Source of the DNA: Oscillospiraceae bacterium
Lineage (GTDB): Bacteria > Bacillota > Clostridia > Oscillospirales > SIG627
Reading direction: 5' to 3'
DNA: 64,000 bases
Assembly: GCA_015063985.1 (NCBI GenBank)
Contig: SVTC01000008.1
Location: forward strand, 8,324 to 72,323
The notes under the pieces were generated by a model. The model did no database searches and was not told the DNA's origin. It saw only the letters and a program-made list of their open reading frames with translations. Position numbers and translations under genes: made by a program. Positions 50,487 to 61,315 of the stretch are shown one piece after another. The stretch's first letter is position 1. The number at the start of each line of letters is the position of its first letter.

Positions 50487-50669
50487 TCAATTTTGCTTTT
50501 GTACAAGCTTATATTCATCAAAAAAACGAAAATAGGGGCAGGAGGAATAGTTCCCCGCCATATATCTTGCCAGCTCGTCCTCGTCAAGATCCACTGCGCA
50601 AACGTAATCGTCCAGCTCTTCGTCGTAGACGTTGTTCTCGCAATGATCGCAATTTGAACGCTCCTTCAC
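50487..50669 (-). CDS. small cysteine-containing protein (DUF6472-like), hypothetical
   Basis: 60 aa. CDHC....YDEE.DDY.C..DLDEDE......SCPYF pattern. Confidence 0.55.
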   Translation of the reverse strand: MKERSNCDHCENNVYDEELDDYVCAVDLDEDELARYMAGNYSSCPYFRFFDEYKLVQKQN

Positions 50670-50768: not shown

Positions 50769-51302
50769 TCAGGCCTCAAGCTGCTTTGCCAAAAATGCCG
50801 CCGCGGTCTGGACAAGCTTTATTTCCAGGTCGGTGGGCTCGCCTTCCCCATCCGTCACACTCAGTACGGCGCCTATTATATCTCCGTCAAGGAGTATGGG
50901 CATAAGGACGCTTACGTAGCTTCCCGCCTTACCCAGATCTATAAGCGCCTGACCGCTTCTGTGGCAAAAGAGCTGTCTTCGTTCTATAAGCCGCTCCAGC
51001 TCCTGAGGCAGCTTCTGATCCACAAACTCCTTTTTCGATATTCCCGCGCAGGCGATTATGCTGTCTCTGTCGCATACCGCCACGTTCAGACCGCAGCTTT
51101 TGTTCAAGGTGTCGCAGTATCCCGATGCAAAGTTAAAAAGCTCCCCTATGGGCGAATACTTTTTAAATATCACTTCCCCATCGTGATCGGTAAATATTTC
51201 CAGCGGGTCGCCCTCTCTTATCCTCATCGTGCGACGAATTTCTTTGGGGATAACGACTCTGCCGAGGTCGTCTATACGTCTTACTATTCCAGTTGCTTTC
51301 AT
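50769..51302 (-). CDS. spoVT: stage V sporulation protein T (AbrB-type N-domain + GAF-like C-domain)
   Basis: MKATGIVRRIDDLGRVVIPKEIRRTMRIREGDPLEIF is the canonical SpoVT/AbrB swapped-hairpin N-terminus. At 177 aa the length matches SpoVT. Confidence 0.9.
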   Translation of the reverse strand: MKATGIVRRIDDLGRVVIPKEIRRTMRIREGDPLEIFTDHDGEVIFKKYSPIGELFNFASGYCDTLNKSCGLNVAVCDRDSIIACAGISKKEFVDQKLPQELERLIERRQLFCHRSGQALIDLGKAGSYVSVLMPILLDGDIIGAVLSVTDGEGEPTDLEIKLVQTAAAFLAKQLEA

Positions 51303-51367
51303 ATATACATTTCTCCTTAAATTACAAATTGTGTTGTTATTATCTGTAATTTGAGGGGATTTATACT
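51292..51367. repeat. left direct repeat: first 11 nt of spoVT plus its upstream region
   Basis: GTTGCTTTCAT-ATATACATTTCTCCTT-aaatta-CAAATTGTGTTGTTATTATCTGTAATTTGAGGGGATTTATACT recurs at 54029-54164. The 43-nt 3' part differs at one base. Confidence 0.85.
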
Positions 51368-51391
51368 TTTAAAACAACTAATAAACTGGGA

Positions 51392-52825
51392 TTATTTCAA
51401 TTTTTGATTGAAAGTTCTTTCAGTTACAGGTTCGTCATAATTCCAGTAAATAATATGAACGCCATTCTTTTTGCACAAGTTAGATTTTTTCAAATCTCTT
51501 TTTTGTAATTCTTTGAATTTTTGTTCGCCGCCAAAATAATCTACTGGACTAAAATGTTGAATTCCTTGATACTCAAAAGCGATTTTTAAAGAAGGAATAT
51601 AAACGTCCAAAGATTGCTGACCAAGCCACTGTGCACGATATTGATAGATGGCTTCGGGATAATGCTTGTGTATCAATTCAAACATTGCAGCTTCGTTTAC
51701 CCACTTGCTAATTTTAATTCCTGCTGCTTTCATTTCCAATAAAAGTGAAGATTCATATTCTTGGAATATTTCTTTTTCTTTTTTGCATTTTTCTTGCAGG
51801 AACCACAAATCTATATCGCCCGAAAAACTACATTTCGATGAACCGTATTCGCCATAAGTGCCTTTAAAATATGCTGTAGAGAATATTTTGTCAAAAATGT
51901 TATTGAATATTTCTTTATCTGTTTTTATTCCTGTCAACATTTTCATTGTATCCAAAAGGCACTGACACATTCTTTCTTGTGAATCGGTCAACGATGGTAA
52001 TGCAGAAAAATATCCGTGTTTTTCTGTTAATGTTATATCCATTATGGAAATAAACATATCCATGGGCACGCCATAAATAGAATATGAACCGCGAAGCCTT
52101 GAAAAAAGATAGCGAACCTCTTTTAATTCTAAATTTTTCTCGTCGAGTTTAATTCGGATGTTTTGTGTTTCATCATTTTCAAATATATTGGGTACAATTT
52201 CAAAAGGCAAACTATGCCTCATTAACCAAGATACTATTTCGCCTGTTTTATTGTTGCCACAAGTGTAATAAAGATATCTATAATCATCATTCCTTTTAAA
52301 AAACTTTTTGCGAAAAAACTCTATAAACTCTTTGTTAATAGAAATTGAAGCGTCAGGCGATGTTTCCTTATGATATCGAGAAATTTCCGCTTGTGTCATA
52401 GCAGAAAGTTCCCAAAGAGTAATATCTCTATCGGCTATTTTGTAACAACCAGTCATTTTATTAAGCGTAAAGCCGTATTGACATGGCCCTAAAAACAAAG
52501 CAGATTCTTTATGTGGCAATTGATACAATTCACCACGAGTATCAATTAAATAATTTTCTTTTGATTTTTCATCGAACACTATTATAGAAGTATATTCTTG
52601 ATTTGATGCAGATACGAAAGCTTTATTAAAAATAATTTGTTCCTGGTCTTTTGTAACATGAACAATACAATGATTTCCACGATATTTCTTTTGATAAAAT
52701 ATGCCCTTTTCCGTATTAACACAAAAAGCGCCTATTTCATATTTTTTTGCCTTGTCTATAGGAAACATAGGAGTTTTATTTGTGATAACTATATCTTTTT
52801 TATTATCCCATTTTTTAACGAGCAT
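51392..52825 (-). CDS. 477-aa protein with C-terminal Vsr/DUF559-like PD-(D/E)XK nuclease domain; N-terminal ~370 aa unassigned
   Basis: AT-rich ORF with AAGAGGTG RBS. C-terminus ...SLDVYIPSLKIAFEYQGIQHF...KRD..K...C...G...I carries the D...(A/V)(F/I)E(Y)xGxQH pattern of restriction-endonuclease-fold proteins. No motif recognised in the N-terminal part. Confidence 0.6.
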   Translation of the reverse strand: MLVKKWDNKKDIVITNKTPMFPIDKAKKYEIGAFCVNTEKGIFYQKKYRGNHCIVHVTKDQEQIIFNKAFVSASNQEYTSIIVFDEKSKENYLIDTRGELYQLPHKESALFLGPCQYGFTLNKMTGCYKIADRDITLWELSAMTQAEISRYHKETSPDASISINKEFIEFFRKKFFKRNDDYRYLYYTCGNNKTGEIVSWLMRHSLPFEIVPNIFENDETQNIRIKLDEKNLELKEVRYLFSRLRGSYSIYGVPMDMFISIMDITLTEKHGYFSALPSLTDSQERMCQCLLDTMKMLTGIKTDKEIFNNIFDKIFSTAYFKGTYGEYGSSKCSFSGDIDLWFLQEKCKKEKEIFQEYESSLLLEMKAAGIKISKWVNEAAMFELIHKHYPEAIYQYRAQWLGQQSLDVYIPSLKIAFEYQGIQHFSPVDYFGGEQKFKELQKRDLKKSNLCKKNGVHIIYWNYDEPVTERTFNQKLK

Positions 52826-52848
52826 ATTTTCACCTCTTTATTATTGTA

Positions 52849-53604
52849 TTATTGATGACTTTCAAGTTCTTTTGTTTTCGCTTCTAACTTTTTAATCTCT
52901 TGGCTTAAGATTTCACTATATTCTGCAGAATAAAAATCAATTTTTGAACTTAAATATGTATTATGCCATAATACTTTTTGTTTTGATTTTATATCTGTTG
53001 CTTCTTCCAGCAGTTTTTCACATTCATTGATTCTATAAAGAAGCAATTCAATATAATTATCCTTAAAAGCCGTTTTTTGCATATAGTCTACAAAAAACAA
53101 ACCATCGCTATCTTGCATTATCCATTTTTGTCGACTTTCATTAGTAGCCAAGTTTAACTTGCCAACGGTTTCTGGGTGTATAACTATTCTGGGGTAAATA
53201 GAAACATTGCTTTCTATATAATAGGCATCTAAAAGAGCGTTTCCCCACAACATAGTTTCATCGGCGAAAAAGTCACCCATTGAAATTCCACCACGAACAA
53301 GATATTTGTGATGAAGAAACTCGTGTTGAATTAAACCACTCAAAATAGCGATAGAAACAAAAGCAGAAAAGTCACCGTTTTGTTTTGTTGGAACTGCAAT
53401 AACAATATTGTCTGAAAAAATTCTAATAATTGGCTTTAGTTTGCTTATTCTTCCGTCATCATATAATTTTTCACATGAAGCTAAAGCATTTTCATACACG
53501 GCATGTACGATATTCAAAGATTTTTCAACGTCTTCCCTGATTTTTTTAGACGAACCTAAAATATCTATAAAAGCAACAACATATTCTTCCAACTTGTGTT
53601 CCAT
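52849..53604 (-). CDS. 251-aa protein with class III nucleotidyl-cyclase-like (palm/CHD) motif pattern and C-terminal coiled coil
   Basis: VAFIDILGSS (D14) parallels F.DI.GFT. IRIFSDNIVIAV (D65) parallels K.IGDA.M. VRGGISMGDFF parallels R.GIH.G. LWGNALLDAYYIES parallels .WGD.VN.A.R.ES. The Asn/Arg of the last motif are not conserved. RBS AAGGGGGA. Sits 23 nt upstream of the nuclease-domain gene. Confidence 0.5.
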   Translation of the reverse strand: MEHKLEEYVVAFIDILGSSKKIREDVEKSLNIVHAVYENALASCEKLYDDGRISKLKPIIRIFSDNIVIAVPTKQNGDFSAFVSIAILSGLIQHEFLHHKYLVRGGISMGDFFADETMLWGNALLDAYYIESNVSIYPRIVIHPETVGKLNLATNESRQKWIMQDSDGLFFVDYMQKTAFKDNYIELLLYRINECEKLLEEATDIKSKQKVLWHNTYLSSKIDFYSAEYSEILSQEIKKLEAKTKELESHQ

Positions 53605-53667
53605 CTGAATCTATCCCCCTTTGTTTATAATATTATATCATATTCTAACACATAAAACAAGCGAGGC

Positions 53668-53853
53668 TCAACACCTCGCTTGTTCTTTATATCGTTTCAA
53701 AATACTATGTACTGCAATCGCAAACTTTTCTTCCAGTGTCAATGTTGTATGAGAGGGGGCTCCTTCTCTTATCCGCATCGTGCGGCGAATTTCTTTGGGG
53801 ATAACAACACGACCAAGGTCGTCTATTCTACGAACAATTCCAGTTGCTTTCAT
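53668..53853 (-). pseudogene. 5' fragment of a second, diverged spoVT/abrB-type gene fused to unrelated sequence
   Basis: The first 30 codons (MKATGIVRRIDDLGRVVIPKEIRRTMRIREG) match SpoVT exactly at protein level. At DNA level 53762-53853 vs 51211-51302 shows 14 mismatches in 92 nt by hand count. In-frame homology then ends, leaving a 61-aa ORF too short for a complete AbrB fold. Confidence 0.6.
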
Positions 53854-53919
53854 AAATATATTGACTCCTCTTTCTTTAATTTAATGAATAATGAAAAATG
53901 AATGATGAATATTGGAATA

Positions 53920-54026
53920 ATTAATGTGTCGGCACAGCCGACAATATTTATATCGTGCCGAAGGCACACCGAAATTATTCACTATTCACTATTCATTATT
54001 CACTCGCAAGGCTCCGCCTTGCGCCC
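53920..54026. repeat. string of small GC hairpins in AT-rich context plus a TTCACTA-type tandem repeat
   Basis: GTCGGCACAGCCGAC, GTGCCGAAGGCAC and GCAAGGCTCCGCCTTGC separated by AATATTTATATC and ATTATTCACTATTCACTATTCATTATTCACT. Confidence 0.7.
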
Positions 54027-54028
54027 CT

Positions 54029-54164
54029 GTTGCTTTCATATATAAATTCTCCTTTGTTGATTTTGTAGGGGCGGCAATCTGCCGCACGCGGGAGGCTGAT
54101 AGCCTCCCCTACGAAAAATTTCAAATTGTGTTGTTATTATCTGTAATTTGAGGAGATTTATACT
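54029..54164. repeat. right direct repeat (spoVT 5' stub + upstream region), interrupted by a 66-bp palindromic insertion
   Basis: GTTGCTTTCAT-ATATAAATTCTCCTT, then the insertion at 54055-54120, then CAAATTGTGTTGTTATTATCTGTAATTTGAGGAGATTTATACT. The insertion holds nested hairpins GTAGGGG[CGGCAatcTGCCG]cacgc[GGGAGGCTgatAGCCTCCC]CTAC. Confidence 0.85.
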
Positions 54165-54171
54165 GCGTGAA

Positions 54172-54200
54172 TTTACTTTTTGAATTGGTTGTGATATAAT
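54172..54200 (+). promoter_or_regulatory. putative sigma-A-type promoter for the 117-aa gene
   Basis: TTTACT, 17 nt spacer, then TGaTATAAT (extended -10) about 30 nt upstream of ATG 54230. The same elements occur at the same spacing at 60388-60416. Confidence 0.45.
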
Positions 54201-54229
54201 AAATAAAAATAATCGATAGGAGGTATTTT

Positions 54230-54583
54230 ATGGCAGATCCGATTATAGAAGAATTAGAAAGTTTCAATGCATTTAGAGTTGATGCTTATTGCGAAGGTTA
54301 TCCGGATGTGATTTTTGAAATCATTTTGGATGTCCAACCGACACAAGAACAAATCACAACTGCCGTTAGTGCTTTGGAACAGTTTGTAAGCCAATATAAC
54401 AAACGCCATTTTTTGAAACCTATTCATTATGTTTCTGATGTTGATAGCTTACCCGACGGCGATCACCCAAGAGGGATATACATACATGTTGATTTTGGTA
54501 ACAGCTCTCCCACTGCTCTAATTGCTGCAGTTGAAGCTTTAGAAAAAACGAAACTGCCTATTTTTAGAGTTGCCTTACAATAA
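54230..54583 (+). CDS. 117-aa acidic cytoplasmic protein, hypothetical
   Basis: AGGAGG RBS 7 nt upstream. AT-rich. No recognisable family. Confidence 0.6.
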   Translation: MADPIIEELESFNAFRVDAYCEGYPDVIFEIILDVQPTQEQITTAVSALEQFVSQYNKRHFLKPIHYVSDVDSLPDGDHPRGIYIHVDFGNSSPTALIAAVEALEKTKLPIFRVALQ

Positions 54584-54607
54584 ATTCATCTGTAAATACA
54601 TAACAAC

Positions 54608-54653
54608 GAGGCTGAGTCAAAAGCAAAATTTTCGCTTTTGACTCAGCCTCTTT
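54608..54653 (+). terminator. strong rho-independent terminator; copy 1 of an identical 46-bp repeat
   Basis: GAGGCTGAGTCAAAAGC-aaaattttc-GCTTTTGACTCAGCCTC-TTT. The 17-bp stem is perfect and a T-run follows. Identical to 61223-61268. Confidence 0.8.
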
Positions 54654-54684
54654 TTTGAGACTTATTGACTCAGCGCCTATGAAT

Positions 54685-55494
54685 TTATTTGACGTTATAG
54701 CGCTCAACTATTTTTTTGACATAGTCACGTGGGGATGTTCCCATACGGCGTTTGAATGCGTAGCTGAAATAGGATTGCGATGAAAATCCGCACTCATAGG
54801 CTATCTGTGTAAGTGTCATATCGGTAGAGATCAGTAGATTGACAGATTTTTTGATTCGTTGATCTTCCACATATTCGTGCAGCGTTTTTCCCGTGGAGGC
54901 TTTGAAAAGCTTGTGAAAATATATCGTGTTGAAATTCGCCGCACTTGCCAGCTTTTCAAGTGTAAGCTCTGCAGACAGATTATTGTTGATATATTCAAGT
55001 GCGCGCTCTATTGTTTTGCGATTGTTGCTTTTCGGAGTGAATTTTACGACAGAGGCAGAGTTTTCACTTAATATATATATGAGTTTAAGTATTAAGCTTT
55101 GAAGAAAGATATCATCGTTTGAAATTCCCGTATTATAGTGTTCACATAGCGATATAAATATCTCTTTTATCTGATCTGTATCTAAAAAATCAATATAGTT
55201 CGGGAGATTAGTAAGAACGTCTCCAAGATACCCATCGTTTACGATCATATGAATATAATAACACTTAAACGGCAAACGGGTATGTCGGATCTGTCCGGGC
55301 TTTGCGCAGATGACCATATTCTCAGTTATCGGATGAGATTCATCATTGATATATGACATTCCTCCGCTTCCAATGGGAAGCTCGAGCTCAAACATTGAAG
55401 TTTTTCGGTTTTTTGATATCGTTCGATTTTTGATTGCAATTTGGGCGTTGTATATTCCGATTGCAACGATCTGCGGTAAAATAGTTTCTTTCAT
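54685..55494 (-). CDS. AraC family transcriptional regulator
   Basis: C-terminal double HTH (LTLEKLA...NFN..YF.KLFK..TG.T...Y....R..K...LL..T....T.IA...GF.S.SYF...FKR..G.SP..Y). N-terminal cupin-like sensor. Confidence 0.9.
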   Translation of the reverse strand: MKETILPQIVAIGIYNAQIAIKNRTISKNRKTSMFELELPIGSGGMSYINDESHPITENMVICAKPGQIRHTRLPFKCYYIHMIVNDGYLGDVLTNLPNYIDFLDTDQIKEIFISLCEHYNTGISNDDIFLQSLILKLIYILSENSASVVKFTPKSNNRKTIERALEYINNNLSAELTLEKLASAANFNTIYFHKLFKASTGKTLHEYVEDQRIKKSVNLLISTDMTLTQIAYECGFSSQSYFSYAFKRRMGTSPRDYVKKIVERYNVK

Positions 55495-61215: not shown

Positions 61216-61222
61216 CTAAAAG

Positions 61223-61268
61223 GAGGCTGAGTCAAAAGCAAAATTTTCGCTTTTGACTCAGCCTCTTT
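61223..61268 (+). terminator. strong rho-independent terminator; copy 2 of the identical 46-bp repeat
   Basis: Same 46 nt as 54608-54653. Confidence 0.8.
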
Positions 61269-61315
61269 GCTTAAAACAGTATTACCTTGCTTGAACGGCA
61301 GACCCCTGCAACGGT

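What the first reader, a model, noticed from the sequence alone, without database searches (positions are those of the whole stretch)
51292..54164. The islet is bracketed by direct repeats of the spoVT start/promoter and carries a second, foreign spoVT 5' fragment with only synonymous differences
**Seen in the sequence**
- The segment covering the first 11 nt of spoVT plus about 65 nt upstream (51292-51367) recurs at 54029-54164. The 43-nt distal part is near-identical, with one mismatch.
- These repeats flank 2,661 bp (51368-54028) that contain the two novel genes.
- Inside the islet, next to its right end, lies another spoVT 5' piece (53762-53853). It is only about 85% identical at DNA level (14 of 92 mismatches by hand), yet it encodes exactly the same 30 amino acids.

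**Inference**
- All-synonymous divergence means this fragment evolved as a functional gene in another lineage. It is not a decaying local duplicate.
- The simplest model is acquisition from a related organism by homologous (Campbell-type or double-crossover) recombination at the spoVT 5' region. That would make the spoVT upstream region an integration hotspot that needs no integrase, and none is present.
- The displaced promoter copies could place islet or neighbouring genes under forespore-type control. The minus-strand sequence GTATA-15nt-CAGATAATA upstream of spoVT loosely resembles sigma-G/F promoters. This last point is speculative.
Basis: partly seen in the sequence, partly recalled or inferred. 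Interest (0 to 1): 0.6.

Follow-up and report, generated by a model that had tools for sequence, protein, structure and literature searches.

The report
Integrase-free cargo hotspot upstream of spoVT
A two-gene, probably anti-phage cassette sits just upstream of the sporulation regulator gene spoVT, bracketed by copies of that gene's promoter and first ~31 codons. The same bracket, with the same or other cargo, recurs in about ten distantly related gut and rumen Clostridia, so this is a gene-exchange hotspot with no integrase gene nearby.

Summary
spoVT (50769-51302, minus strand) has its promoter and 5' end repeated at 54026-54164 (copy C, split by a GC-rich insert). A second 5' piece lies at 53761-53853 (copy B): 31 identical codons and 15 nucleotide differences, all synonymous.

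Comparison with other genomes changes the picture:
- **Left-end module.** Copy B belongs to a conserved module: spoVT promoter and 5' codons, a ~26-aa "tail", then a GC hairpin. This module precedes variable cargo directly upstream of spoVT in about ten lineages.
- **Horizontal transfer.** The 251-aa plus 477-aa cassette is 80-98% identical in DNA (98-100% over 1.56 kb) between organisms whose SpoVT proteins share only 54-56% identity.
- **No artefact, no integrase.** Seven independent assemblies (seven samples) with this exact SpoVT hold the repeats and exclude an artefact. No integrase lies within 10 kb.
- **Empty sites.** Sixty-nine of 73 related species representatives have an empty site. 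A sister species carries the module with different cargo.
- **Cargo.** It is a class III cyclase-fold protein plus a Vsr-like nuclease protein. Relatives of the cyclase-fold protein sit in restriction-modification islands, so defence is the likely function.

Best model: cassettes carry a portable copy of their target and are exchanged by homologous recombination. The step that founds the arrangement in a naive genome is unresolved. Forespore control of the cargo is not supported.

The parts
50769..51302 (-). Intact spoVT gene (177 aa)
   Evidence: Pfam SpoVT_C 2.4e-34 and MazE/AbrB N-domain 6e-12. Identical protein on 18 metagenome contigs.
51303..51367 (-). Copy A: spoVT RBS and promoter (GTATA-N15-CAGATAATA), starting at about -64 directly after the cassette
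   Evidence: Repeat D2. The motif recurs upstream of spoVT in many of the related genomes (strict pattern in 19 of 74). The cassette-to-promoter junction falls at the same point in L091, L092 and L096.
51392..52825 (-). Cargo gene 2: 477-aa protein with a beta-rich N-terminal region and a C-terminal Vsr/DUF559-like nuclease domain (about residues 373-477)
   Evidence: AlphaFold model pLDDT 84. Foldseek matches Vsr 1cw0 (prob 1.0, TM 0.51) and viral restriction/homing-endonuclease proteins. PHROG homing-endonuclease families 1.7e-13 to 3.4e-17. Invariant D407, E418, Q423, H424, D444, K447.
52849..53604 (-). Cargo gene 1: 251-aa protein with a class III nucleotidyl-cyclase fold
   Evidence: AlphaFold model pLDDT 89.7. 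Foldseek matches CyaB 3r5g at 5e-7 and many adenylyl/guanylyl cyclases. Invariant D14, S64-D65, R104-G105. No Pfam, PADLOC or NCBIfam match. 5421 cluster representatives at E<=1e-3.
53642..53671 (-). Predicted sigma-70-type promoter of the cassette (TTGAGC-18-TAGAAT with an upstream TG)
   Evidence: Consensus scan only; function not shown.
53656..53684 (.). Conserved GC hairpin (AACAAGCGAGG...CCTCGCTTGTT) followed by Ts; terminator-like end of the left-end module
   Evidence: Terminator scan. Present at the same place in L091, L092, L256, L023 and L039.
53668..53760 (-). 'Tail' of the fragment ORF (codons 32-61, ..TTLTLEEKFAIAVHSILKRY..), unrelated to SpoVT
   Evidence: nhmmer profile hits in L091, L092, L256, L023, L039 and weakly L014. 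Related tails read by eye at the same place in L096, L029 and L270. The peptide pattern is conserved; dN/dS is about 0.1-0.7 in most pairs (two of 21 exceed 1) and is inconclusive.
53761..53853 (-). Copy B: foreign spoVT codons 1-31
   Evidence: 15 of 93 nt differ from the resident gene, all synonymous. Nearest relatives are the L091 copies, 9 differences. TIGR02851 spore_V_T N-terminus 1.1e-17.
53854..53880 (-). Separate RBS leader of copy B (AAAGAAAGAGGAG...), unlike the leaders of copies A and C
   Evidence: Read from the sequence.
53882..54002 (.). AT-rich element with 27-nt inverted arms that enclose two small GC hairpins; a third GC hairpin lies just outside it, up to 54025; separates copies C and B
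   Evidence: Inverted repeat I1, 85% complementary. Found only in this species among the loci fetched. No Rfam family.
54026..54056 (-). Copy C, proximal part: RBS, ATG and the first 11-14 nt of spoVT, then an abrupt junction
   Evidence: Repeat D3, 91%. A GC-rich element follows the same ATGAAAGCAACAGG| point in L270.
54065..54112 (.). GC-rich palindromic insert GTAGGGG...CCCCTAC that splits copy C
   Evidence: Unique in the window. Elements with the same termini lie 24-31 nt before the ATG of the true spoVT in L042, L057 and L270.
54116..54164 (-). Copy C, distal part: spoVT promoter, 96% identical to copy A. Its upstream extension resembles the long native promoters of related genomes
   Evidence: Repeat D2. 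Compared with L020, L039 and L256.
54230..55494 (.). 117-aa ORF (plus strand) and AraC-family regulator (minus strand). They lie outside the repeats but inside the low-G+C block that is 99.85% identical in a strain whose DNA beyond about 55400 is 13-30% diverged
   Evidence: Composition. Comparison with L003. Pfam HTH_AraC.

Best explanation
The region upstream of spoVT is a recombination hotspot for gene cassettes that carry a portable copy of their own target.

**Anatomy.** A conserved left-end module consists of a spoVT promoter, spoVT codons 1 to about 31-35, a ~26-aa unrelated tail and a GC hairpin. It precedes the cargo. The intact spoVT with its own promoter follows the cargo. The cargo is therefore flanked by direct repeats of one of the most conserved DNA stretches in these genomes.

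**Spread (inferred).**
- Between genomes that already carry a module, cargo is swapped by ordinary double-crossover homologous recombination in the two arms or inside related cassettes.
- In a naive genome the arrangement is founded more rarely. One route is a single (Campbell-type) crossover of a cassette that circularised through its own repeats. The other is repair synthesis primed from the spoVT 5' region.
- Between close relatives the whole block moves by recombination in flanking core genes.
- No dedicated integrase is involved.

**This window.** Copy B and the 251-aa plus 477-aa cassette came from an L091-like donor. Copy C is an older, resident-type module remnant that small GC-rich and AT-rich insertions have broken up.

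**Cargo (inferred).** It is most likely a two-gene anti-phage system. The cyclase-fold protein would make a nucleotide signal that activates the Vsr-like nuclease protein.

**Shown:** the repeats, the conserved module, the variable cargo, horizontal transfer, mosaic breakpoints and the absence of an integrase.
**Inferred:** the recombination pathway, the founding step and the defence function.
For: **The cassette moves between distant hosts**
- Window against L091: the 251-aa gene is 98.4% and the 477-aa gene 91.8% identical in DNA, while SpoVT is 53.7% identical in protein.
- Window against L092: 79.9% and 87.1% in DNA, with SpoVT at 55.9%.
- The flanking genes are entirely different in each genome.

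**Mosaic identity, as expected from homologous recombination**
- Window against L091 is 98-100% identical from about 53710 (inside the tail and hairpin) to about 52150 (mid 477-aa gene).
- Identity then falls to 77-89%, to 69-79% over the promoter and spoVT 5' end, and to about 41-57% in the rest of spoVT.

**One module, different cargo**
- 251-aa plus 477-aa genes: window, L091, L092, L096.
- 253-aa gene plus a different 582-aa nuclease protein: L270.
- Acyltransferase: L014. Esterase: L023. Membrane protein: L039. Small ORF: the sister species L256. Another ORF: L029.

**The occupied state is derived**
- Only 4 of 73 assessable species representatives carry a module.

**Crossover and conversion points vary**
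- Copy B of L023 is foreign up to about codon 10 and identical to the resident gene afterwards.
- The two copies are identical in L014, differ at 4 of 93 nt in L091 and at 15 of 93 nt in the window.

**No mobility gene**
- No integrase, recombinase or transposase is called around the window locus, L091, L092 or L270.

**Transfer between close lineages**
- A block of at least 4.8 kb that includes spoVT is 99.85% identical to L003. The DNA beyond it differs at 13-30% of positions.

**Cargo points to defence**
- Cyclase fold. Vsr-like nuclease.
- Homologues of the 251-aa protein lie next to or inside restriction-modification and McrBC-like loci, and their partner genes vary.
Against: - The homology arms are short (about 170-250 nt) and only about 77-85% identical between lineages. 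The longest exact matches are 12-36 nt. From general knowledge of RecA requirements, that is a poor substrate, so transfer between families by recombination alone should be rare.
- The junctions are strikingly constant: codon ~33-35 into the tail, and about -64 at the promoter. The tail and hairpin persist even where the spoVT part has been deleted (L039, L092, L256). This hints at a function beyond passive homology.
- No empty site was found within the window's own species. No circular or excised form can be looked for with these tools.
- The founding step in a naive genome is not documented by any intermediate.
- The C-to-B arrangement in the window is not explained in detail.
- The defence function rests on fold and neighbourhood only. 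The cassette matches no PADLOC model.
Confidence: 0.55

Rival explanations
1. The module is an attachment site. A site-specific recombinase encoded elsewhere (a host Xer-type enzyme or a helper element) recognises the spoVT 5' sequence or the conserved tail and hairpin. It inserts circular cassettes there, much as integron cassettes or dif-targeting elements use an enzyme supplied in trans.
For: - Junction positions are constant across lineages.
- The tail and hairpin are retained with very different cargo, even where the spoVT codons are lost.
- Tandem modules occur in L096.
- Arms of 77-85% identity with exact runs of 12-36 nt are weak substrates for general recombination.
Against: - No recombinase gene lies near any of the loci examined.
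- Breakpoints of high identity lie inside the cargo genes and at variable places in the repeats. This is not what one fixed core would give.
- No right-end hairpin or inverted repeat matches the left one.
Confidence: 0.2
2. The cassette is a selfish homing element. The 477-aa Vsr-like nuclease cuts cassette-free spoVT 5' regions. Repair from a cassette-bearing copy then installs the cassette and co-converts the flanking spoVT sequence, as free-standing homing endonuclease genes of phages do.
For: - The C-terminal domain matches phage families annotated as homing or HNH endonuclease and viral restriction/homing proteins by fold.
- It occurs fused to NUMOD1 and related DNA-binding modules.
- Nuclease-bearing cassettes sit at spoVT in five lineages.
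- A foreign spoVT 5' tract lies beside the cassette, as co-conversion would leave.
Against: - The same module and site hold cargo without any nuclease: an esterase, an acyltransferase, a membrane protein and small ORFs.
- A 57%-identical homologue of the 477-aa protein lies away from spoVT.
- The nuclease is always paired with a cyclase-fold gene whose relatives sit in defence islands.
- The intact spoVT next to the cassette keeps the same protein-coding target, with no sign of an immune site.
Confidence: 0.1
3. The arrangement is a local duplication or an ancestral arrangement inherited vertically, with slow decay of the extra copies.
For: - In L014 the two copies are identical, and in L091 nearly so.
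- All informative contigs of the window's own species carry the islet.
Against: - Cassette DNA is 80-100% identical between hosts whose SpoVT is 50-56% identical.
- Carriers are scattered among non-carriers, and the closest SpoVT relative, L011, lacks a spoVT 5' duplicate.
- Copy B is closer to another lineage's gene than to the resident one.
- The islet has foreign base composition.
Confidence: 0.03
4. The repeats are an assembly artefact, such as a collapsed or duplicated join.
For: The window and its relatives are metagenome assemblies, and repeats can mislead assemblers.
Against: - The same structure appears at 99.85-100% identity in seven contigs from seven samples and two data sources.
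- The three copies differ from one another, so none is a duplicated read path.
- Diverged versions of the same architecture exist in other species.
Confidence: 0.01

Closest known systems
Minimal mobile elements of Neisseria (cassettes exchanged between conserved flanking genes by transformation and homologous recombination; recalled from my own knowledge, not checked here)
   Same: - Variable cargo at one chromosomal site.
- No mobility genes.
- Exchange best explained by recombination in conserved flanks.
- Mosaic identity between carriers.
   Different: - The left flank here is not an independent conserved neighbour gene. It is a duplicated piece of the right-flank gene (promoter plus about 31-35 codons) with a conserved tail and hairpin, and it travels with the cargo.
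- The unit therefore lands at spoVT in genomes that share no synteny upstream of it and belong to hosts whose SpoVT proteins are only 50-56% identical.
Core defence hotspots (for example cDHS1 and cDHS2 of Pseudomonas aeruginosa; PMC10250203)
   Same: - Defence-type cargo between conserved markers, without scars of mobile elements.
- The authors suggest transfer through the conserved flanks by transduction and homologous recombination.
   Different: - Those hotspots are defined within one species, between two different core genes or RNAs.
- This one spans many species.
- It uses direct repeats of a single gene's 5' end.
- It also holds non-defence cargo.
Integrase-borne genomic islands that insert into a gene end and carry a replacement for it (tRNA/tmRNA islands; sporulation-gene intervening elements such as skin; recalled from my own knowledge)
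   Same: - Direct repeats made of a gene end flank the inserted DNA.
- The target gene stays intact.
- The displaced copy shows foreign, synonymous-only differences.
   Different: - No integrase or recombinase gene is present.
- Crossover points vary.
- The target is a 5' end with its promoter.
- spoVT is not interrupted, so nothing needs to be excised for it to function.
Pycsar and Pucsar cyclic-nucleotide defence systems (for the cargo)
   Same: - A small cyclase-fold protein encoded next to a separate effector.
- The effector is swapped between relatives: 477-aa, 582-aa, 227-aa and DUF3800 partners.
- Relatives lie in restriction-modification and other defence neighbourhoods.
   Different: - No sequence match to PADLOC models or to Pfam Guanylate_cyc.
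- The effector carries a Vsr/DUF559-like nuclease rather than a TIR or transmembrane domain.
- No cyclic-nucleotide-binding domain was recognised.
- No product or phenotype is known.
Free-standing homing endonuclease genes of phages with Vsr/DUF559-type nuclease domains
   Same: - The nuclease domain of the 477-aa protein matches them by sequence profile and by fold.
- The cassette lies beside a highly conserved gene.
   Different: - The protein has about 340 residues of unrelated N-terminal domains.
- It is paired with a cyclase-fold gene.
- The hotspot works with cargo that has no nuclease.

Membership tests
SpoVT (stage V sporulation protein T) - resident gene 50769-51302 | AbrB-type N-terminal DNA-binding domain plus the SpoVT C-terminal GAF-like domain | tested here: met
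   Pfam PF04014 at 6e-12 and PF15714 at 2.4e-34, above the cut-offs.
SpoVT - fragment ORF 53668-53853 | A full-length match to the family model | tested here: not met
   Only residues 2-35 match TIGR02851 (64.5 bits against a cut-off of 235.9). The rest is an unrelated tail. It is a 5' fragment, not a paralogue.
Integrase-mediated genomic island | Tyrosine or serine recombinase gene within or beside the island | tested here: not met
   No such Pfam family among the genes called within about 10 kb of the window locus, L091, L092 or L270.
Integrase-mediated genomic island | Direct repeats derived from the target gene at both ends | tested here: met
   Repeats D1-D3. The same is seen in L091, L023, L014 and L096.
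Recombination hotspot / minimal mobile element | Different cargo between the same conserved flanks in different genomes | tested here: met
   At least seven kinds of cargo behind the same module.
Recombination hotspot / minimal mobile element | Exchange by homologous recombination (mosaic tracts, variable breakpoints) | tested here: inconclusive
   Sharp identity breakpoints at about 53710, 52150 and 55400 and hybrid repeat copies fit this. The pathway itself, and the way DNA enters the cell, cannot be tested here.
Homing endonuclease gene | Nuclease domain of a homing-endonuclease type | tested here: met
   PHROG homing/HNH endonuclease families at 1.7e-13 to 3.4e-17. Vsr-like fold.
Homing endonuclease gene | Mobility of the locus depends on the nuclease, which cleaves the cassette-free allele | tested here: not met
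   The same site and module carry cargo with no nuclease. Cleavage specificity cannot be tested with these tools.
Class III nucleotidyl cyclase (251-aa protein) | Cyclase homology domain fold | tested here: met
   Foldseek probability 1.0, E down to 5e-7, target TM 0.6-0.68 against many solved cyclases. Model pLDDT 89.7.
Class III nucleotidyl cyclase (251-aa protein) | Sequence membership (Pfam Guanylate_cyc) and the catalytic metal-binding Asp pair | tested here: inconclusive
   No Pfam match at E<=0.01. Invariant D14 and D65 plus R104 lie in motifs that resemble the catalytic ones, but their structural equivalence was not checked residue by residue.
Pycsar / Pucsar | Match to known PycC cyclase models and an effector with a cyclic-nucleotide-binding domain fused to a TIR or transmembrane module | tested here: not met
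   No PADLOC match for either protein. The effector has a Vsr-like nuclease and no recognised nucleotide-binding domain.
Sporulation-gene intervening element (skin-like) | The element interrupts the gene and is excised by its own recombinase | tested here: not met
   spoVT is intact and complete, and no recombinase is present.

The most novel reading that the evidence does not exclude
The conserved left-end module is an active mobility device, not passive homology. The module consists of the spoVT promoter and 5' codons, the tail and the GC hairpin. Under this reading it defines a new family of integrase-less gene cassettes that carry a copy of their own chromosomal target. The copy would serve as a built-in homology arm or as the recognition site of an unidentified enzyme acting in trans. 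This would let varied cargo home to spoVT across family-level distances in gut and rumen Clostridia. The cyclase-plus-nuclease cargo would then also be a previously undescribed signalling defence system.
Probability: 0.25. Interest if true: 0.8.

Novelty: new variant of a known kind. Interest (0 to 1): 0.6.

Why it matters
**How genes move without mobility genes**
- Cassettes flanked by a portable copy of a highly conserved promoter and 5' coding stretch can move between distantly related, uncultured gut and rumen Clostridia.
- They land at the same place each time, beside a key sporulation regulator, with no mobility gene of their own.
- This would be a simple and general way for defence genes and other accessory genes to cross species boundaries.
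- Island-finding tools that look for integrases or tRNA sites would miss it.

**A candidate defence family**
- The 251-aa cyclase-fold family is large (5421 cluster representatives at E<=1e-3) and has no annotation in Pfam, NCBIfam or PADLOC.
- It is paired with interchangeable partner proteins; those at spoVT carry a Vsr-like nuclease. It is a candidate for a new nucleotide-signalling defence system.

**A practical warning**
- Insertions and small GC-rich elements accumulate in the promoter region of spoVT. Annotation and expression studies of this gene in these organisms need care.

Tried and rejected
**Searches that found nothing useful**
- Pfam, PADLOC, NCBIfam and PDB sequence searches gave nothing usable for either cargo protein. 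Only PHROGs and fold comparison were informative.
- Rfam found nothing above noise in 51200-54700, so the hairpins are not a known RNA family.
- Literature searches for a spoVT-linked island or hotspot, and for a cyclase plus Vsr defence system, found nothing relevant.
- The upstream neighbours of the module (the 117-aa ORF in the window, a 170-aa ORF in L091, a 174-aa ORF in L092) are unrelated to one another. The conserved unit does not extend further upstream.
- The C-to-B spacer (53854-54026) has no relative outside this species among the loci fetched.

**Searches that were limited or unavailable**
- The metagenome scan with the 477-aa family returned mostly distant nuclease-domain hits. 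Only one close cassette, L096, came back.
- The viral scan showed that the nuclease domain is common in phages, but found no copy of the cassette.

**Questions left open**
- I looked for an empty site in the same species. Of the ten contigs shown with the identical SpoVT, nine reach into the islet and carry it, and one stops 54 nt upstream. No empty site was seen.
- I tested whether the tail is under protein-level selection. Over 20 codons, dN/dS is 0.1-0.7 in most pairs (up to 1.2), too short to decide.

**Ideas rejected**
- *The fragment ORF is a functional small AbrB-like protein.* Its spoVT part is deleted or truncated in L092, L256, L039 and L029, while the tail and hairpin persist.
- *Homing endonuclease is the main explanation.* I first favoured this, then rejected it because nuclease-free cargo uses the same site.

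Full report
**1. What is in the window**

spoVT lies on the minus strand at 50769-51302 and is intact. It is 177 aa, with an AbrB-type N-domain and the SpoVT C-domain.

On the spoVT strand, from far upstream towards the gene, the order is as follows:
- **Copy C.**
  - Distal promoter, 54164-54116.
  - A GC-rich palindrome, GTAGGGG...CCCCTAC, at 54112-54065.
  - RBS, ATG and 11-14 nt of coding sequence, 54056-54026.
- **Spacer.** An AT-rich element with 27-nt inverted arms and small GC hairpins, 54002-53882.
- **Copy B.**
  - Its own RBS.
  - spoVT codons 1-31, 53853-53761.
  - An unrelated 30-codon tail that ends in a GC hairpin, 53684-53656.
- **Cassette.** A 251-aa gene (53604-52849) and a 477-aa gene (52825-51392).
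- **Copy A.** Promoter and RBS (51367-51303), followed by spoVT.

How the copies compare:
- Copies A and C share 49 nt at 96% and 23 nt at 91% identity.
- Copies A and B share 107 nt at 83%.
- Copy B has 15 differences in its 31 codons, all synonymous.
- The promoter core occurs exactly twice in 64 kb, with none expected by chance.

G+C is 26-36% from about 51300 to about 55600, against roughly 42-55% outside.

**2. It is not an artefact**

Eighteen metagenome contigs encode the identical SpoVT, and ten were shown. Seven of them, from seven different samples, extend into the islet and match the window at 99.85-100% over it. Two more end 210 nt upstream of spoVT, inside the 477-aa gene. The tenth stops 54 nt upstream. 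No empty site was seen in this species.

No integrase, recombinase or transposase is called within about 10 kb.

**3. The cassette is horizontally mobile and lands at spoVT**

Close homologues of both cargo genes were found immediately upstream of spoVT in other organisms. The surrounding genes there are completely different.

| Comparison | 251-aa gene (DNA) | 477-aa gene (DNA) | SpoVT (protein) |
|---|---|---|---|
| Window vs L091 | 98.4% | 91.8% | 53.7% |
| Window vs L092 | 79.9% | 87.1% | 55.9% |

Two further lineages show the same placement:
- L096 carries a more diverged cassette, at 83% and 74% protein identity.
- L270 has an 82%-identical cyclase-fold gene with a different 582-aa partner. 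The partner contains the same nuclease core, again directly before a spoVT that is 50% identical to the window's.

A sliding comparison of the window with L091 is mosaic:
- 98-100% from about 53710 to about 52150;
- then 77-89% over the rest of the cassette;
- 69-79% over the promoter and spoVT 5' end;
- about 41-57% in the rest of spoVT.

So 1.56 kb was exchanged very recently between hosts that are far apart. One breakpoint lies in the tail and hairpin, the other inside a cargo gene.

**4. A conserved left-end module with variable cargo**

The sequence that follows spoVT codon ~33-35 in copy B is not random. The same tail (..TLTLEEKFAIAVHSILKRY.. and variants) and the same hairpin occur at the corresponding place in L091, L092, L256/L257, L023 and L039. 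More diverged or partial versions occur in L014, L029, L096 and L270.

The cargo behind the module differs between lineages:
- the two-gene cassette;
- an Acyl_transf_3 protein (L014);
- an esterase (L023);
- a membrane protein (L039);
- a 92-aa Cys-rich ORF (L256/L257);
- other ORFs (L029, and the first module of L096).

L096 has two modules in tandem.

L256/L257 is a sister species. Its SpoVT is 89% identical and the downstream gene order is the same. It has the module but not the cassette.

Among 73 species-representative genomes with at least 1.5 kb upstream of spoVT, four carry a module and 69 have a single spoVT 5' end. Carriers do not group by SpoVT similarity, so the occupied state is derived and scattered.

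**5. Copy B is foreign**

SpoVT residues 1-31 are almost invariant: 4 protein variants in 85 genomes. The DNA differs by a median of 21-22 of 93 nt between lineages. All-synonymous divergence is therefore the normal signature of an orthologous 5' end from elsewhere.

Copy B is nearest to the L091 copies (9 differences) and further from the resident gene (15). In other genomes the two copies are partly or fully homogenised:
- identical in L014;
- 4 differences in L091;
- in L023, a hybrid that switches type near codon 10.

This shows ongoing conversion, or variable crossover points, within the repeat.

**6. A larger exchange between close lineages**

Against L003, the window is 99.85% identical from about 55400 to the contig end at 50586. 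That stretch includes the AraC gene, the 117-aa ORF, both modules, the cassette and spoVT. Beyond 55400 the two differ at 13-30% of positions. The breakpoint coincides with the edge of the low-G+C zone. The whole block therefore also moves by recombination in flanking DNA.

**7. The cargo**

*The 251-aa protein*
- It models confidently (pLDDT 89.7) as a class III nucleotidyl-cyclase fold.
- D14, S64-D65 and R104-G105 are invariant.
- The family is large, with 5421 cluster representatives at E<=1e-3. Pfam, NCBIfam and PADLOC do not recognise it.
- Homologues lie beside type I restriction genes, inside a type I restriction-modification operon, and next to a methylase, a restriction enzyme and a McrBC-like pair. 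Their partner genes vary.

*The 477-aa protein*
- Its model has pLDDT 84.
- It has a Vsr/DUF559-like nuclease domain at the C-terminus.
- That domain is shared with phage proteins annotated as homing or HNH endonucleases.

The most economical reading is a signal-generating enzyme plus a nuclease effector, that is, a defence system. This is inferred from fold and neighbourhood only.

**8. Mechanism**

The data fit cassettes that carry a copy of their target:
- **Between carriers.** Double crossover in the module, in the spoVT 5' region or inside related cargo explains the mosaics.
- **In naive genomes.** A circle formed through the cassette's own direct repeats could insert by a single crossover. 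Alternatively, repair synthesis could copy the cassette between the two repeat copies. Both routes give the observed duplication, and neither is documented here.

Two facts weigh against a purely passive model:
- The arms are short and only 77-85% identical, with exact runs of 12-36 nt.
- The junctions and the tail and hairpin are unusually constant.

An enzyme acting in trans on the module therefore remains a serious rival. Homing driven by the nuclease is less likely, because nuclease-free cargo uses the same site and module.

**9. Promoter question**

The repeated 49 nt contain GTATA-N15-CAGATAATA. A strict version of this motif is found upstream of spoVT in 19 of 74 of the related genomes examined, and by eye in more. 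From general knowledge of Bacillus forespore promoters, it resembles the sigma-F/G type.

- The module ends in a terminator-like hairpin in every lineage where it is intact.
- The cassette has its own predicted sigma-70-type promoter.
- Cargo in other lineages often points the other way.

**10. Novelty**

No paper linking spoVT to an insertion hotspot was found.

The nearest concepts are defence hotspots flanked by core genes (PMC10250203) and the minimal mobile elements of Neisseria (from my own knowledge). What differs here:
- the homology arm is portable, being a duplicated target promoter and 5' end with a conserved tail and hairpin;
- the unit reaches across hosts whose SpoVT proteins are only 50-56% identical.

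I rate it a new variant of a known kind, with moderate to high interest.

Noticed in passing
window 54065-54112; also L042, L057 and L270 just upstream of spoVT: A GC-rich palindromic element with the termini GTAGGG...CCCTAC and two internal hairpins splits promoter copy C. Elements with the same termini but different interiors lie 24-31 nt before the ATG of the true spoVT in 3 of 84 related genomes, where about 0.24 would be expected from background. It could be a small mobile palindromic element with a site preference, or a structured leader.
   Followed up: partly
window 53882-54002: An AT-rich element with 27-nt inverted arms (85% complementary) encloses two short GC hairpins, and a third lies just beyond it. 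It sits between copies C and B. It has no Rfam match, and among the loci fetched it is found only in this species. Its origin is unexplained.
   Followed up: partly
L096 225-300 and 1196-1280; L270 5645-5760; L272 85-190: Other GC-rich elements of about 75-115 nt sit exactly at junctions inside the modules: after ATGAAAGCAACAGG, or between spoVT codon ~31 and the tail. Some occur twice in one locus. Recombination between such copies could explain modules that have lost their spoVT codons.
   Followed up: no
window about 55400 (inside the AraC-family gene 54685-55494): There is a sharp switch from 99.85% identity to 13-30% divergence against contig L003, at the edge of the low-G+C zone. A block of at least 4.8 kb that includes spoVT itself was exchanged between lineages that are otherwise well diverged.
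   Followed up: yes
L256 2085-2190; L092 7030-7145: In two lineages the fragment ORF starts at the codon for Met26 of SpoVT, fused in frame to the tail (M-RIREGD..DNSL..). In L256 it lies directly behind a complete spoVT-type promoter and RBS. This is either a precise internal deletion or a hint that the tail peptide is expressed.
   Followed up: no
window 54602-54656 and 61220-61269: The long perfect hairpin after the 117-aa ORF (a 20-bp stem, terminator-like) has a related copy about 6.6 kb away in the window. The match to L003 is 87-98%. It looks like a repeated terminator or a small repeat element.
   Followed up: no
L266-L269 5001-5840: A distant (32% identical) member of the 251-aa cyclase-fold family is encoded between hsdM and hsdS, inside a type I restriction-modification operon next to a Mu-like transposase and TniB.
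   Followed up: no
window 50487-50669: A 60-aa Cys-rich DUF6472 protein lies directly downstream of spoVT. It is conserved in that position in the sister species, followed there by the same epimerase and M16 peptidase genes.
   Followed up: no
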